Positions 1 through 52,616 of a stretch of 64,000 bases of DNA are shown in pieces. Both the position numbers and the translations under genes were made by a program. The number at the start of each line of letters is the position of its first letter. Within the stretch, counting starts at the first letter, position 1. Source of the DNA: Octopus vulgaris (taxonomy: Eukaryota). The notes beneath the pieces are model-generated. The model had not been told where the DNA came from, made no database searches, and saw only the letters and a program-made list of their open reading frames with translations. The stretch is from positions 16,802,001 through 16,866,000 of the forward strand of contig OX597838.1 in NCBI GenBank assembly GCA_951406725.2. Direction: 5' to 3'.

Positions 1-400
1 GAATGCTTTGGTTTTTCTCTGATGAGAAAAACTTAATTGTACACGTATCCCTGAAATGCTTAGCCGCTTACAAGCTAATTCAATGAACTAGTAATTCAGA
101 TGACCTAACAAATGAGTAATCATTGTCGAAAACAGCTGGAGTTTCACTTTTACTTTTTATATGAATGCATGCATGTCATGGCGTTGTATCTGCACTTGTT
201 TTTACTTTACGGACAAATCGAAAAAAAAAGAAAAAGAAAAAAATCTCAATAATTCTCAGAATATTGCATAGCATTCTCTGAACGCAGCAATTTTTACTTT
301 TAAACCCCACCGTTCTTCTCTAATTTGTAGTGTAATTGTATGCGCTCCATGCGTTAAATGCTCGATCATAGCATACCTTTCGGCGCAATGGCCCATACCT

Positions 401-8000: not shown

Positions 8001-11000
8001 TTCCGCAACTGGACAGGATGCCAGCCCATCGCAGCATTACCCATTTTTGCCAGCTGAGTGGACTGGAGCAACATGAAATGAAGTGTTTTGCTCAAGAACA
8101 CAACGCGTCGCCCGGTTCAGGAATCGAAACCACAATCTTACGATCATGATGCTGACACCCTAACCACTAAGCCTCCACTTTAGTTTGTTTACATCTTTGT
8201 AACTTACCAGTTTGACAAAAAAAGACTGATAAAATAAGAGCCAGGCTTAAAATTCTGGACATCACCTTGGAGGACGCAGAGGGGCTGGCACAGGACCGCC
8301 AGCAATGGAGAGCACTGGTGGATCTAGTCGGCTCTATGCATGATGACATCTTAGGGACCATTAACCTTGGACAACCTCAGTCCCCTCATGGAAGAGCATG
8401 AAGCAAGGCTTACAATTGGTATTGCAGTCAATTTGTTCCACTGCCCCTGTTGAATGACCACATAGAGGTTCTCTTGTTGACTCAACCCTTATCTACTTAC
8501 TGTTAAGTGTACAGAGTCAGAAGGGGTTAAATGTTTTGGCCATTGAGACAGTTCAGGTCTAGTGACATCAGACTCCAATCTGATCTGGCAGAGTTTCTAC
8601 AGCTGGATGCCCTTCCTAACGCCAACCACTCTGAGAGTGTAGTGGGTGCTTTTACGTTCCACCGGCACGAGGGCCAGCCAGGCAGTACTGGCAACGGCCA
8701 TGCTCAAATGGTGCTTTTTATGTGCCACCTGCACAGGAGCCAGTCCAGCGGCACTGGCAACGACCTCGCTCGAATGTTTTTACAGCTGGATGCCCTTCCT
8801 AACGCCAACCACTCTGAGAGTGTAGTGGGTGCTTTTACGTTCCACCGGCACGAGGGCCAGCCAGGCAGTACTGGCAACGGCCATGCTCAAATGGTGCTTT
8901 TTATGTGCCACCTGCACAGGAGCCAGTCCAGCGGCACTGGCAACGACCTCGCTCGAATGTTTTTACAGCTGGATGCCCTTCCTAACGCCAACCACTCTGA
9001 GAGTGTAGTGGGTGCTTTTACGTTCCACCGGCACGAGGGCCAGCCAGGCAGTACTGGCAACGGCCATGCTCAAATGGTGCTTTTTATGTGCCACCTGCAC
9101 AGGAGCCAGTCCAGCGGCATTGATAACGACCTCGCTCGAATGTTTTTACAGCTGGATGCCCTTCCTAACGCCAACCACTCTGAGAGTGTAGTGGGTGCTT
9201 TACGTTCCACCGGCACGAGGGCCAGCCAGGCAGTACTGGCAACGGCCATGCTCAAATGGTGCTTTTTATGTGCCACCTGCACAGGAGCCAGTCCAGCGGC
9301 ACTGGCAACGACCTCGCTCGAATGTTTTTACAGCTGGATGCCCTTCCTAACGCCAACCACTCTGAGAGTGTAGTGGGTGCTTTTACGTTCCACCGGCACG
9401 AGGGCCAGCCAGGCAGTACTGGCAACGGCCATGCTCAAATTGTGCTTTTTATGTGCCACCTGCACAGGAGCCAGTCCAGCGGCACTGGCAACGACCTCGC
9501 TCGAATGTTTTTACAGCTGGATGCCCTTCCTAACGCCAACCACTCTGAGAGTGTAGTGGGTGCTTTTACGTTCCACCGGCACGAGGGCCAGCCAGGCAGT
9601 ACTGGCAACGGCCATGCTCAAATGGTGCTTTTTATGTGCCACCTGCACAGGAGCCAGTCCAGCGGCACTGGCAACGACCTCGCTCGAATGTTTTTACTGC
9701 TGGATGCCCTTCCTAACGCCAACCACTCTGAGAGTGTAGTGGGTGCTTTTACGTGCCACCGGCATGAGGGCCAGCCAGGCAGTACTGGCAACGGCCATGC
9801 TCAAATTGTGCTTTTTATGTGCCACCTGCACAGGAGCCAGTCCAGCGGCACTGGCAACGACCTCGCTCAAATGTTTTTACTGCTGGATGCCCTTCCTAAC
9901 GCCAACCACTCTGAGAGTGTAGTGGGTGCTCTTACGTGCCACCAGCATGAGTGGCAGTAAGGTGACGCAGGTAATGATTACGCTCGAACGGTGTTTTTTA
10001 CGTGCCCATCGGTACGGAGGCCAGCTTGTTGCTCTGGCAACGATAATTAGATGTCACTTATTATGATAGTGATTTGTACTCTTGTATATTTCCAGATGTT
10101 TCTATTGGTCAAGTTGTATCTCTAGTACACCAGGACCTACACAATGAATATACTCTAAAACAGCTTCGGTATGTTTCAAGCAGTGTGATAAGCCTTCTGG
10201 AAGATTCATCAGTGAATCACCTCACCAACTGCAATGTGGTTCATCGCCGACTTTCTGGAAAGATCTTCAAAAGTGTTAGTACTCACTTAGTTTCATTGGT
10301 TTGTTGTTGCTTCTGTTATTTTATCTGAGCCAATCTGTGGCCATCACACATTTATTTGAGCCTTTTGTGTTACCATTATTTCTATTGAAATATGCCCTCT
10401 TTACTACAATTAAGGCAACTTCATTGTAGTAACCATGTGCGACTCTCCCTTCTGGCACTAGATGTCCGCACTGCGACCGATCTTTTCAAGCAAGAATTGG
10501 TCTTATCGGTCACCTTCGGACTCACCAGTAAATTTGTGCGAAGACCATCATCCTCGACCTTGAGGGATTGCAATCATCATCACTACAATTAATTTAGAAA
10601 ATAATAAAGAATATAAAAAAAAAATAAATGCACCCTTTTAAAGCCTAGCCAGGCTCATGGGCCCGGTTTCCCAGTTTCAATGGTCTATGTGTTCCCCAGC
10701 TGGACGGGATGCCAGTCCATCGCAGCGTTACTCACTTTTGCCAGCTGAGTGGACTGGAGCAATGTTAAATGAAGTGTTTTGCTCAAGAATACAACACGTT
10801 GCCCGGTCCAGGAATTGAAACCACAATCTTACAATCATGATGCTGATGCCCTAACCACTTAGCCACATGCCTCCACAATAAATAATATAGTAAAATATAT
10901 ATATATTAGCAACAGAGGCAGTATTCATACTGCAAGGTAATACCTATCCCCACTTAAATATGGATGTTCTGTTAGCACAAGCTATACTGTGGCAGATAGC

Positions 11001-15640: not shown

Positions 15641-15827
15641 TATGAATAAATGAAAGAATGGAGTCGAACGAAGATTTTAACAAAATTCCTTTACTCTTAA
15701 CACATGTTTCGAAGACTGCATACTCTTAATTCCGAAGGAAAAGAGTATGCAGTCTTCGAAACATATGTTGAGAGTAAAGGAATTTTGTTAAAATCTTCGT
15801 TCGACTCCATTCTTTCATTTATTCATA
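15641..15827. repeat. 187-bp near-perfect palindrome (87-bp arms, 2 mismatches)
   Basis: tatgaataaatgaaagaatggagtcg... pairs with ...cgactccattctttcatttattcata; loop 15728-15740. Confidence 0.95.
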
Positions 15828-18186: not shown

Positions 18187-19160
18187 AATCGACTTCCTTG
18201 CTTGGTTAGTACTTTATTTTATCGACTTCACCACCTGAATAGGATGAAAGGCAAAGAAGTTGACCTCAGAATACAGCCAGGCCTTTTCCTGATGTTCTAA
18301 CAATTCTATTGCCCCTTTAACTCTTCTTCGCCCCCCCCCCCCCCTTCCGCAGTAACTTTTTTCGGATCTTTGCCTTTTGACCTGCAGGTAAAGATCCATA
18401 CGTTTCCGATGGTGTTACATGCCAATTATTATTTCATATTTTATCACGATAATCGTAATCTAACCCTTCGAAAACGTATCTCGGGGAAAATGTATTTTGA
18501 AATTTATTTCTGGAAACTTCCCGGAGGAAATGCATTTAAGAAAGTCTGGTGGGAGAATAATCCTAAAAAGAAACAAAAACCTTTTTAAATATTTTCTACA
18601 CTAAAATGTATCTTAGGAAAATTTCACTAGACAATATGGATTTTTCAGAAACATTTGTAGAGAAACAAAACTACATCCCGCCTTAAAACGTCACACACAT
18701 ACACACACACTATCATTGGCTGGAGAGGCAGAATTAAAGTAAGGTTGTCTCGTAATAGGAAATTTGTTAAAATACCACGAAGAATAATACTAAATAAAGA
18801 AATGTTGGGGGACATTGTGACGTTTATGCGTTTGCCAGGAATATCACTGATGTTAAAGGGAAGTGAACATGTTTTGAATTGGATATCAAAACAGGTAGCC
18901 TGAAGCTTATCTTTCGCTTTATGGCAACTTTCCTCACAAAAAGTGGAAAGAAAAAAAAATAGTGTCCCACATTCGACTTCTCACATGAAAAATGTCAAAT
19001 AAATCAGTGATATTTCAGAATGTCAAAGTAGAAATATAAATTTAACCCTTTCAATTCATAATGTCAAAACAATCTACATATTTCTGAAAGACAGAAATGA
19101 AAATTAAGGCAAAATTTCCAAATAATGAAGACAGTTATAAAAATTTAAACTTTGAAGTGA

Positions 19161-19990
19161 GAAATGGTTACGAATTTACTGGTTTGTGATGGAATTAAGG
19201 AGACATTCAAACAGATAAGAGTTGGGGCCATTTTATATAAAAATCTCTTCTCCACCAAATAAATTAAAAGAAGGGATGTCAGGAACTTCTGCAAGAAGAG
19301 AATCCTCAGAAAGTTCCTGGTTCTTTGAAATGGTTACGAATTTACTGGTTTGTGATGGAATTAAAGAGACATTCAAACGGATAAGAGTTGGTGCCATTTT
19401 ATATAAAAATCTCTTCTCCACCAAATAAATTAAAAGAAGGGATGTCAGGAACTTCTGCAAGAAGAGAATCCTCAGAAAGTACCTGGTTCTTTGAAATGGT
19501 TACAAATTTACTGGTTTGTGATGGAATTAAAGAGACATTCAAACGGATAAGAGTTGGTGCCATTTTATATAAAAATCTCTTCTCCACCAAATAAATTAAA
19601 AGAAGGGATGTCAGGAACTTCTGCAAGAAGAGAATCCTCAGAAAGTACCTGGTTCTTTGAAATGGTTACAAATTTACTGGTTTGTGATGGAATTAAAGAG
19701 ACATTCAAACGGATAAGAGTTGGTGCCATTTTATATAAAAATCTCTTCTCCACCAAATAAATTAAAAGAAGGGATGTCAGGAACTTCTGCAAGAAGAGAA
19801 TCCTCAGAAAGTTCCTGGTTCTTTGAAATGGTTACGAATTTACTGGTTTGTGATGGAATTATAGAGACATTCAAACGGATAAGAGTTGGTGCCATTTTAT
19901 ATAAAAATCTCTTCTCCGCCAAATAAATTAAAAGAAGGGATGTCAGGAACTTCTGCAAGAAGAGAATCCTCAGAAAGTTCCTGGTTCTTT
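19161..19990 (-). repeat. Tandem array, 5 x 166 bp, made of the last ~30 codons, stop and 3'UTR of the 151-aa gene
   Basis: gaaatggtta recurs at 19161, 19327, 19493, 19659, 19825; units nearly identical. Confidence 0.97.
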
Positions 19991-20352
19991 GCTGCTGCAC
20001 ACCGTCTTTGGTGAACTTTCTGTCTGTTTGAAGCCTGAACTTGTAAAGTAGTTTTCGATGACTGTACAGGAGTTCCTGGAACTTGTTGATCGGATGTGGA
20101 TGATTCTAGGGAGACGACTGTAGCTTCGCTTTTATTCTTCTTCCGAGATGGAGTTTGTGAGTTTGGCGCCAAAATTTCCTGGCTTTGAACAGGTGTCCTA
20201 ATATTCCCGTAAGAAGTGCTTGTTTCTGGCGACCTCCAAGGATCGATATTTGAACTTCTTGATTGCGGAACAACGGCCGAAGGAGAATTACAATTGTTCT
20301 GAGTCACTAAAAGAGGTGTACTGGGAACATTTTGTAACGGAGACTTCGACAT
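19897..20352 (-). CDS. Uncharacterised 151-aa Ser/Thr/Pro/Gln-rich (likely disordered) protein
   Basis: Mostly non-repetitive, more GC-balanced ORF. A canonical 67-nt intron (GTAATT...tttttAG, 20442-20376) lies 23 nt upstream of the ATG, with an in-frame stop in the upstream exon. Seven S/T-P sites, a basic RKKNK stretch, and a hydrophobic-acidic C-terminal motif. Confidence 0.65.
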   Translation of the reverse strand: MSKSPLQNVPSTPLLVTQNNCNSPSAVVPQSRSSNIDPWRSPETSTSYGNIRTPVQSQEILAPNSQTPSRKKNKSEATVVSLESSTSDQQVPGTPVQSSKTTLQVQASNRQKVHQRRCAAAKNQELSEDSLLAEVPDIPSFNLFGGEEIFI

Positions 20353-22009
20353 TTCGATGAACGAATCAAGATCAGCTAAAAATCAATATCAAGAGATTTA
20401 AGCAGGATTTAATTATCTCGTTATAAACTTAAAATAAATTACCTCAGCTTTGGTGTGACAATCTTTAACGAAGTTTCTATTTTTCTTCCACTATTTCTTC
20501 ATGGAAATTTAACAGGAAACATAATTAAATGTTTTATCATAATGATTTTTTTCTTTATTGAATTATGTCGGGATTATCTAAACGAAGGACAACGGAAAAT
20601 AACGAGTTTTAAATTACCATTAAAACATTTTAAAGTATTATTTTTTCCTGAGATTGGTGTTTACTTCGATTTCTTCTTATTAGTAAATAAAAAAACTTAT
20701 TTTTCTCAAAATTAACGCTTTCTTGGGAAAAAGAAATATTTATTTCATAAAGCTATTAGTGAACAATAGCGTCGTGAGATGTTTAAATGTGTTTATCACT
20801 GGTTTACTGTGTTTCTAACGAACTAAATTGTTTGAAACGAGGTATTTATATGGTGATTTAAAATTTCTGTATATAATATATTAAAAATATATATAATGTT
20901 TTATATTTCACTAACAAGGTTAGTCTTGAGGTTATGGTAAAACATACTTATTCAAGATGCCATGCAGTGGAATCGAACCCAGAACCTCACGGCTGTGTGA
21001 CCATCCTGCATTTCTGGTGATGTTCAGCAACACCGTTATGCAGGTCGAAGTGCAGTTTAGTGTTGTAAAAAAATTGGAATTAAATAGTGCCGGAAATGGA
21101 GATTGCTAAATACCATAATTGCATAGGTACTTGTATAGAATCACCATGGTAAATAGTATTTTTTAAAAATTGGGTATTTGGGACAGTAGAAAGAGGTCAA
21201 ATGCTGCCTGACAGATCCTTGATCGTCCGTGCGCAATGGTTATTACATTGCGTCATTATTATAGTAATAACGCAATGGTTATTACTAGGGACGCGTATGA
21301 TACCTGATAGGTAAACGTTTTAAGTTAATTTAGGCCACATACATAAAGTGTGAAGTTACGAACTATTCTTTAAAATTTGTCGATCCAATGATGAGAACAT
21401 CTATATACAGACTTATTGAATGGTGGCGTATACTCGCCAAGAAGAAACTCAGATGACAATGTGGAACGAGTAATGCTTTTATTAACGTCGTATTTGTACG
21501 AGCATATGTGGCAAATTAGGTTCAGAAAAAATGGAAAAGCTATATGTATGTTCTATACATTGTTTTCATGTTATATAAATATGATGGAGATGGGGGTGTT
21601 TTGACTGCATTTTTGAATGAGACAGAATAAATTTTCCGCAAATGTTCACAACTTTACCAAAACAATATCAGCTAAGCAAATGGCCTTCCTTAAACGTATT
21701 AAAAGTATTACTCGCCATGCAGTTAAAAGAGAATAAATTATTGAAATTAGACGTTACTCATTTTACCCCATTTTAGACGTCATTTTTTTAAATCTTGAAA
21801 ATGATCAAATTAGACTTAGTGTGAGAAAAAAATTGAGTTGGAATCCAACAGAGTAAAGAATATCAATTGTTAAACATCAAAATAATCTAGATATTTTATT
21901 AAAATCCTCAATTATAATTGGGTCAAAGTTGAGGAAAAACTTCTTGGAAAAAGGGGGCCTACCACCTCTCAACTTCAACAACTATGCTAACCAGTTTTTA
22001 CTCCTAAAG

Positions 22010-26439: not shown

Positions 26440-52616
<26,177 letters not shown>

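What the first reader, a model, noticed from the sequence alone, without database searches (positions are those of the whole stretch)
19161..20352. Gene end amplified into exact stop-A-ATG mini-ORF cassettes
Seen: directly after the TAA of the 151-aa ORF comes A-ATG-G (AAAATGG, a good initiation context). The unit is 166 bp = 54 codons + stop + 1 nt. Each of four units is therefore a complete ORF MAPTLIRLNVS(L/I)IPSQTSKFVTISKNQ(E/V)LSEDSLLAEVPDIPSFNLFGGEEIFI* (19895-19731, 19729-19565, 19563-19399, 19397-19233), and a fifth ATG runs into the original 3'UTR. Each peptide reproduces the parent protein's last 30 residues. Inference: the mRNA would look polycistronic, with termination-reinitiation geometry, and could release free copies of a C-terminal binding motif (decoy or dosage effect). 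A +1 slip at the stop would instead extend the protein by a unit. It may equally be a neutral recent duplication whose geometry is coincidental.
Basis: partly seen in the sequence, partly recalled or inferred. Interest (0 to 1): 0.7.

Follow-up and report, generated by a model that had tools for sequence, protein, structure and literature searches.

The report
Repeated gene end makes mini-ORF chain
The last 94 coding bases and first 72 untranslated bases of a small cephalopod gene stand five times in a row, which by simple geometry creates four tiny reading frames behind the gene; copies in a related organism carry stops and frameshifts, so this is likely a tolerated recent duplication and not a device for making several peptides.

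Summary
Observation confirmed. A 166-bp unit (94 nt CDS end + 72 nt 3'UTR) stands 5.0 times at 98% identity behind a 151-aa ORF, giving four 54-aa stop-A-ATG ORFs. The parent is a real, single-locus cephalopod gene (orthologs at 66, 44 and about 30% identity) with a conserved C-terminal motif, which each mini-ORF carries. The array is not an assembly artefact: junction-bridging contigs occur in 2 of 4 DNA runs and 2 of 4 RNA-like runs, and flank contigs break at the same boundaries under three organism labels. The geometry needs no selection: the ATG at +2 is inherited 3'UTR, and 28% of possible breakpoints give the same chain. The antisense strand also yields four 50-aa ORFs. No UGGGA TURBS core is present. 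Variants look neutral (4 synonymous of 11), and a related organism has copies with a nonsense codon (two studies) and a frameshift. Best reading: a recent, near-neutral minisatellite expansion that lengthens the 3'UTR. A peptide-independent dosage effect remains open; decoy peptides are unlikely. Translation is untested. The scan noted the same junction-duplication logic before in bacterial DNA, not at this locus.

The parts
19897..20352 (-). Parent gene: 151-aa ORF, S/T/P/Q-rich, 7 SP/TP sites, predicted disordered with one helix (109-122); single locus; no Pfam family
19161..19991 (.). Tandem array, 166 bp x 5.0 (94 nt CDS end including the stop + 72 nt 3'UTR); units differ by 1-5 nt
   Evidence: junction-bridging contigs
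19731..19895 (-). Mini-ORF 1, 54 aa (24 UTR-derived codons + parent's last 30)
19565..19729 (-). Mini-ORF 2, 54 aa
19399..19563 (-). Mini-ORF 3, 54 aa
19233..19397 (-). Mini-ORF 4, 54 aa
19145..19231 (-). Fifth ATG ORF, 28 codons; inferred to be the downstream ORF of the single-copy ancestral 3'UTR
   Evidence: ancestral status is inference
19900..19935 (-). Codons for the conserved C-terminal motif (LF..[ED][ED][IF]F[IL]-COOH); repeated at the end of every mini-ORF
19734..20105 (-). +1 frame, open for 124 codons over the CDS end and in frame with the first mini-ORF ATG
19276..19926 (+). Four antisense 50-aa ATG ORFs (19276-19428, 19442-19594, 19608-19760, 19774-19926); internal control for chance ORFs
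20353..20552 (-). 5' leader covered without a splice by contigs of two RNA-like runs; holds three short upstream ATG ORFs (20540, 20522, 20502)
19175..19180 (-). AGUAAA polyadenylation-signal variant in the last unit (one per unit; also one UAUAAA and two CPE-like UUUUA(A)U per unit); use as a signal is untested
18756..19160 (-). Unique 3' flank, covered by contigs of one RNA-like run (X5)

Best explanation
A 166-bp stretch spanning the stop codon of a small single-locus cephalopod gene is amplified to five tandem copies, and the chain of stop-A-ATG mini-ORFs is likely a near-neutral by-product of that geometry rather than a selected polycistronic device. Shown: the gene is conserved, the array is real and shared with the same boundaries by runs under three organism labels, the first copy keeps the 151-aa protein intact, and some copies in a relative are broken. 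Inferred: one slippage or unequal-crossover event copied the CDS end plus 72 nt of UTR (a 5-nt CAAAG match lies at both ends, 7 nt off the present junction), and further unequal exchange expanded it. The gene's own 3'UTR already had an ATG at +2 with an open frame, so every copy regenerates stop-A-ATG; 166 = 3n+1 puts that ATG in frame with the next CDS end, a 1-in-3 outcome. Inferred: ribosomes mostly terminate and recycle at the first stop, so copies 2-5 act as extra 3'UTR, and any 54-aa peptide is made at background level.
For: Breakpoint model: 28% of pairs within 100 nt of UTR (4953 of 17760), 14% within 200 nt (4953 of 36260), give the chain from the +2 ATG. The antisense strand gives four 50-aa ATG ORFs, and 3 of 9 other comparable arrays carry repeated ATG ORFs of 30 aa or more. 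The region is prone to such arrays: 9 in 264 kb at and around the window against 1 in 200 kb sampled elsewhere. No UGGGA, UGGG or GGGA within 110 nt of any of 5 stops. Of 11 distinct point changes in the unit, 4 are synonymous, 6 missense and 1 nonsense; the neutral expectation is 24-29% synonymous, P 0.25-0.39. A nonsense change at codon 27, which removes the motif, is on junction-linked contigs in X5 and X12 (organism C, two studies), while the parent contig of X12 is intact there; X12 also has a unit with a 2-nt insertion that leaves an 8-codon ORF. Unit divergence (mean 3.2 of 166, 1.9%) is close to the flank divergence of organisms B and C from the window (25-26 letters in about 1045, 2.5%), so the array is young. 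Reinitiation after a long cellular ORF is described as presumably very rare (PMC5972666, passage).
Against: An ATG in good context at +2, in frame and open, is a 0.3-0.7% event a priori. All four mini-ORFs are intact in this genome. The repeated part holds a motif conserved down to about 30% overall identity. The array persists in runs under three organism labels. The variant test is small (11 changes) and has little power; one change (Q27R, A>G on the sense strand in an RNA-like run) may be RNA editing; variants cannot be placed on a given copy. Broken copies still keep their ATG, so they do not exclude a peptide-independent effect of dORF number (PMC7459409, passages). Translation of 3'UTR ORFs in cellular mRNAs is reported as common (PMC10275272 section 9; PMC3923131 abstract).
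Confidence: 0.72

Rival explanations
1. Peptide-independent dosage: the extra copies multiply downstream ORFs and 3'UTR elements (CPE-like U-rich motifs, weak poly(A) signals), and copy number would tune translation, stability or 3'-end choice of the parent mRNA.
For: dORF number, not length or peptide, raises main-ORF translation in vertebrates (PMC7459409, abstract and passages). Each unit has 2 CPE-like motifs (shuffle mean 0.35, P 0.03) and 2 poly(A)-signal variants (mean 0.31, P 0.03). Broken copies in organism C keep their ATG. RNA-like contigs cross junctions.
Against: The motif tests were chosen after looking and are not corrected. Both CPE-like motifs lie in the parent's CDS end, where codons for the conserved motif explain them. 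No expression or allele data. The dORF effect was shown in vertebrates only. An effect on expression would not by itself show selection.
Confidence: 0.15
2. One reading: ribosomes terminate and reinitiate along the chain and release free 54-aa peptides bearing the conserved C-terminal motif, which would act as decoys or raise motif dosage.
For: Stop-to-ATG distance of 1 nt is within the 20 nt seen for viral reinitiation (PMC10275272, passage). ATG context is A at -3 and G at +4. The motif is conserved. Only one out-of-frame ATG lies inside the CDS, so leaky scanning past the main start would meet few traps. Four intact ORFs in this genome.
Against: No TURBS core. The upstream ORF is 151 aa and the mini-ORFs 54 aa, against 'much shorter than 35 aa' for tarsal-less reinitiation (PMC1852585, passage). 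Nonsense and frameshift copies in organism C remove the motif. No excess of synonymous changes. Three upstream ATGs and a main ATG with A at -3 precede the mini-ORFs.
Confidence: 0.07
3. A +1 ribosomal frameshift in the CDS end or at the stop would extend the protein by one unit and duplicate the C-terminal motif in cis.
For: The +1 frame is open from codon 82 to the end and runs in frame into the first mini-ORF. A U-rich run precedes the stop.
Against: The only XXXYYYZ heptamer in the CDS is at 20177 and is a -1 type site out of register. The stop context ATA-TAA is not the +1 sites I recall (antizyme, Euplotes; recalled, no call). The frameshifted unit in X12 breaks the extension.
Confidence: 0.03
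4. The array is an assembly expansion and the true locus has one copy.
For: No contig in any laid run spans the whole array, so the count of five is not independently confirmed.
Against: The units differ at 7 sites. Junction-bridging contigs with 31 or more letters on both sides occur in X1 and X6 and in X5 and X18; X2 and X4 hold shorter junction contigs. Flank contigs break about 30 nt inside the repeat in 4 of 4 DNA runs on both sides.
Confidence: 0.02

Closest known systems
Minisatellite / VNTR formed by tandem duplication across a gene's stop codon (general class; from my own knowledge)
   Same: Head-to-tail 166-bp units at 98% identity; first copy keeps the protein intact; extra copies become 3'UTR; neighbouring arrays of 115-184 bp period are frequent here.
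   Different: Here the unit happens to be a whole ATG-to-stop ORF ending in the parent's conserved motif. Variation in copy number between individuals was not measured.
Downstream ORFs (dORFs) in 3'UTRs (Wu et al. 2020, PMC7459409; RPL36A dORF, bioRxiv 10.64898/2026.05.26.727855)
   Same: Short ATG ORFs behind the main stop of a cellular mRNA; peptide sequence not conserved.
   Different: Known dORFs are defined by ribosome footprints, which are lacking here. These are tandem copies that include the parent's own C-terminus.
tarsal-less / polished rice / mille-pattes polycistronic smORF genes (PMC1852585)
   Same: Several tandem short ORFs with a shared motif on one eukaryotic transcript; ORF number varies by duplication.
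   Different: tal ORFs are 11-32 aa, spaced 40-200 nt, first on the mRNA and conserved for 440 Myr. Here they are 54 aa, spaced 1 nt, behind a 151-aa ORF, young, and broken in a relative.
TURBS-dependent termination-reinitiation of caliciviruses and influenza B (PMC10275272, PMC5972666)
   Same: Stop and start within 20 nt and out of frame, after a long ORF.
   Different: No UGGGA core upstream of any stop; the stop and start do not overlap.
Mycobacterial MIRU repeats and duplicated bacterial stop/start junctions (PMC12548453, one passage)
   Same: A repeat unit that carries a mini-ORF and regenerates a stop/start junction.
   Different: Bacterial units bridge two coupled genes, so a relay has a target. 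Here no gene lies downstream, and eukaryotic ribosomes normally recycle.

Membership tests
Tandem repeat (minisatellite/VNTR) over a gene end | Head-to-tail near-identical units in genomic DNA | tested here: met
   166 bp x 5.0, 98%; junction contigs in independent DNA runs
Tandem repeat (minisatellite/VNTR) over a gene end | Copy number varies between individuals | not testable with these tools
   Only short-read contigs were on hand; their depth is no copy number and none spans the array
TURBS termination-reinitiation | Stop and restart codon within about 20 nt | tested here: met
   1 nt spacing at all 5 stops; criterion from PMC10275272
TURBS termination-reinitiation | UGGGA motif-1 core upstream of the stop | tested here: not met
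   0 of 5 stops have UGGGA, UGGG or GGGA within 110 nt; definition from PMC5972666
TURBS termination-reinitiation | Motif 2/2* stem presenting motif 1 | not tested
   Not folded, since motif 1 is absent
tarsal-less-type polycistronic smORF gene | Several short ORFs with a shared motif on one transcript | tested here: inconclusive
   Shared motif yes; junction-crossing contigs in runs only guessed to be RNA; no full-length cDNA
tarsal-less-type polycistronic smORF gene | ORFs much shorter than 35 aa, spaced 40-200 nt, with no long ORF in front | tested here: not met
   151-aa ORF first, then 54-aa ORFs spaced 1 nt; criteria from PMC1852585
tarsal-less-type polycistronic smORF gene | Peptide conserved under purifying selection | tested here: not met
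   4 synonymous of 11 changes, 1 nonsense, 1 frameshift; small sample
Translated dORF | ATG ORF in the 3'UTR of an expressed mRNA | tested here: inconclusive
   ORFs present; covered by contigs of RNA-like runs whose kind is a guess
Translated dORF | In-frame ribosome footprints or detected peptide | not testable with these tools
   No Ribo-seq or proteomics tool
Programmed +1 frameshift | Open +1 frame beyond the stop | tested here: met
   Open 20105-19734
Programmed +1 frameshift | Known shift site with conserved stimulator | tested here: inconclusive
   Only XXXYYYZ heptamers were scanned (one, at 20177); ortholog DNA not available

The most novel reading that the evidence does not exclude
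A young tandem duplication has turned a monocistronic animal mRNA into a copy-number-tunable polycistron: ribosomes reinitiate without a TURBS after a 151-aa ORF and release free copies of the protein's conserved C-terminal docking motif, a decoy system born de novo from a gene's own end.
Probability: 0.07. Interest if true: 0.75.

Novelty: new member of a known kind. Interest (0 to 1): 0.28.

Why it matters
As most likely read, it is a clean example of how one tandem duplication across a stop codon yields a polycistronic-looking ORF chain with no selection, a caution for sequence-only scans. It also offers a natural allelic series (intact, nonsense and frameshifted units) in which reinitiation after a long cellular ORF, and the claimed effect of dORF number, could be tested outside vertebrates. 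If the peptides are made and act, it would show a polycistronic decoy arising de novo. The parent is an uncharacterised cephalopod protein with conserved short motifs.

Tried and rejected
Last exon of a longer gene: a candidate 67-nt intron (20442-20376) has good splice sites, but the upstream frame holds a stop, contigs of X5 and X12 read through it unspliced, and all three orthologs begin at the same Met; a search among 278-2000-aa proteins gave none at E<=1 of 867 candidates (weak evidence). Transposon cargo: no terminal inverted repeats around the gene among the 25 longest of 116 pairs; the upstream flank is single-copy and the downstream flank has only 8 short 51-79-nt side matches. Paralogs: none in the own genome. 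Naming the protein: Pfam 0 families for the parent, the mini-ORF, the +1 frame and 3 orthologs; PDB only E 0.85; ESM Atlas no usable hit; P0004 (frog repeat protein, E 1.3e-5 on a 25-residue stretch) was dropped as a low-complexity match. No fold search was run because the model has pLDDT 54. Mini-ORF peptide in protein databases: no candidate among 29-95-aa proteins and no exact match; this is no evidence, since such short ORFs are seldom called. Ortholog DNA to test the +2 ATG: the metagenome scan gave 88 pattern matches and 0 confirmed; no relatives' genomes are held, so this stays open. No RNA holder is on record; the RNA labels are guesses. Contig depth was higher in the array than in the flanks and low past 19174 in X5, but the tool states that depth cannot rank parts or give copy number, so I did not use it; the idea that transcripts end near the last AGUAAA is untested. 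A retrocopy origin of the unit was considered, because the junction lies 14 nt behind an AGUAAA, and set aside: there is no poly(A) tract or target-site duplication, and the copy starts exactly at its own source. Literature searches for this locus or a cephalopod case (listings only) showed none. No supplements were read.

Full report
Observation. TRF finds 19161-19991, period 166, 5.0 copies, 98% matches, no indels. The minus strand holds the 151-aa ORF 20352-19897 and four 54-aa ORFs at the stated coordinates, each starting 1 nt after the preceding TAA in A-ATG-G context. A fifth ATG at 19231 opens 28 codons into unique sequence. The unit is 94 nt of CDS end plus 72 nt of UTR. The five units differ at 7 sites, 1-5 nt per pair, mean 3.2.

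The parent gene is real. A near-length search gave 2 hits among 29 candidates: P0001 (149 aa, 66%, unnamed Logan protein) and P0002 (157 aa, 44%, Argonauta hians hypothetical protein). A profile search of 1.84 billion representatives gave 4 hits at E<=0.001: these two, P0003 (167 aa, about 30% in the alignment) and a repeat protein that I dropped. P0003's only match in this genome is this locus, weakly (E 0.059). All four start at the same Met and share an N-terminal SPxQNVPxTPLL block, a DQQVP block and a C-terminal LF..[ED][ED][IF]F[IL] end. The gene is single-locus, has no Pfam, PDB or Atlas assignment and is predicted disordered apart from one helix (pLDDT 54). It lies about 6 kb behind the last exon of a DRAM/Frag1 gene on the same strand.

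The array is real and shared. I laid 8 of 24 listed runs. In 4 of 4 DNA-sized runs (organisms A, A, B, C; four studies) the unique flank contigs stop about 30 nt inside the repeat on both sides, at 19190-19202 and 19949-19962, as expected from a branch at the same boundaries. Junctions are bridged by 31 or more letters a side in X1 (19451-19534) and X6 (19617-19700), with shorter junction contigs in X2 and X4. No contig spans the array, so five copies is not independently confirmed. Among four small runs (X5 of unknown kind; X12, X16, X18 guessed to be RNA), X5 and X12 read 19962-20552 and 19953-20520 without a splice, X5 (19621-19698) and X18 (19193-19395) bridge junctions, X18 reaches into the last unit, and X5 covers flank down to 18756. 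This fits a transcript running through the array, with the caveat that no run is on record as RNA. P0001 is full length on contigs up to 1514 nt, whereas CDS contigs break at the repeat in 6 of the 8 runs laid; I infer that its source lacks the array, but could not fetch its DNA. Organisms B and C differ from the window flank by about 2.5%, close to the 1.9% between units, so the array is young but older than that split (inference).

Is the geometry more than chance? Two separate things are needed. First, an ATG just after the stop with an open frame: for the real breakpoints, shuffled or sampled UTRs give an in-frame open ATG within 2 nt in 0.3-0.7%, within 20 nt in 4.5%, and anywhere in 11-20%. 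This is the one mildly surprising fact, and it belongs to the single-copy gene, since the last unit still shows it. Second, the period must be 3n+1. Given the +2 ATG, 4953 of 17760 breakpoint pairs (28%) within 200 nt of CDS and 100 nt of UTR give the same chain, and 1350 of 7446 (18%) for units of 140-190 bp. The 'exact' 54 codons + stop + 1 nt is then forced arithmetic. Controls: the antisense strand of the same array gives four 50-aa ATG ORFs, and 3 of 9 other arrays of 100-300 bp period carry repeated ATG ORFs of 30 aa or more. Such arrays are dense here: 9 in 264 kb at and around the window, 1 in 200 kb sampled elsewhere.

Is there selection on the mini-ORFs? Pooling window and run variants gives 11 distinct point changes: 4 synonymous, 6 missense, 1 nonsense, plus one 2-nt insertion. 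The neutral expectation is 24-29% synonymous; P(4 or more of 11) is 0.25-0.39, and 0.19-0.32 for 4 of 10 if the one possible A-to-I edit is dropped. The nonsense change at codon 27 removes the whole conserved motif and is on junction-linked contigs in X5 and X12 (organism C, studies P4 and P6); X12's parent contig shows no change there. The insertion in X12 leaves an 8-codon ORF. Against this reading: the sample is small, variants cannot be assigned to copies, and all four ORFs are intact in this genome.

Mechanism. Reinitiation after a long ORF usually relies on added signals (PMC10275272; section 9 and passages read) and is called presumably very rare for cellular ORFs; the TURBS core is UGGGA (PMC5972666; passages). 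None of the 5 stops has UGGGA within 110 nt. tarsal-less, the closest animal polycistron of tandem short ORFs, has ORFs much shorter than 35 aa, spaced 40-200 nt, with a strongly conserved peptide (PMC1852585; passages); this locus fails those features. On the other side, human 3'UTR ORFs are often translatable (PMC3923131; abstract), leaky scanning can reach a dORF (bioRxiv 10.64898/2026.05.26.727855; abstract and outline), only one out-of-frame ATG lies inside this CDS, and dORF number rather than peptide raises main-ORF translation in vertebrates (PMC7459409; passages). Broken copies keep their ATG, so a peptide-independent dosage effect survives my tests (0.15). The +1 frame is open from codon 82 into the first mini-ORF, but I found no shift signal (0.03).

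Origin (inference). The parent side and the 3' flank share CAAAG, 7 nt beyond the present junction, and the junction itself has a 1-nt match. This fits microhomology-driven slippage with a small deletion, then expansion by unequal exchange. There is no sign of a transposon around the gene.

What is known. The class, a tandem repeat over a gene end, is ordinary (own knowledge). Repeat units that regenerate a stop/start junction are known in bacteria as MIRUs (PMC12548453; one passage), and the scan's own notes list several bacterial junction duplications; none concerns this locus or sequence. Searches (listings only) showed no paper on this gene or a cephalopod case.

Verdict. Real, young, likely transcribed tandem amplification of a conserved gene's end; the mini-ORF chain is most likely coincidental and near-neutral (0.72). 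New member of a known kind, interest 0.28. The bold reading, a de novo polycistron releasing decoy motif peptides, has probability about 0.07 and would deserve 0.75.

Noticed in passing
window 26443-26667 and 34028-34249 (-): Two exons of a DRAM/Frag1/Sfk1-family gene (Pfam PF10277, E 3e-4 and 1e-9); its last exon ends about 6 kb upstream of the 151-aa gene on the same strand.
   Followed up: partly
window 26694-30583: 169-bp x 23 tandem array (96%) ending about 50 nt before the splice acceptor of the last DRAM exon; carries repeated 32-aa ATG ORFs.
   Followed up: partly
window 8593-9951: 183-bp x 7.4 tandem array (98%) built from a common interspersed repeat; period divisible by 3 gives stop-free frames of 258-280 codons.
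   Followed up: partly
L031:4419-5546 (G000:C25, about 55 kb left of the window): 115-bp x 9.8 array with repeated 69-aa and 61-aa ATG ORFs on opposite strands.
   Followed up: no
G000:C25:16.70-16.97 Mb: Arrays of 100-300 bp period look denser around this window (9 in 264 kb) than in 20 stretches sampled elsewhere (1 in 200 kb).
   Followed up: partly
window 19897-20352 (-), proteins P0001-P0003: Uncharacterised cephalopod protein family: disordered, rich in SP/TP sites, with conserved N-terminal, DQQVP and C-terminal blocks; looks like a kinase-regulated scaffold (inference), function not found.
   Followed up: partly
window 15641-15827: Near-perfect 87-nt inverted repeat with a 13-nt spacer, 98% complementary; possibly a MITE-like element.
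   Followed up: no
window 20144: The window's base (R70) differs from 6 of 7 runs covering it, which read Q70 as in the two closest orthologs; a rare allele or a base error.
   Followed up: no
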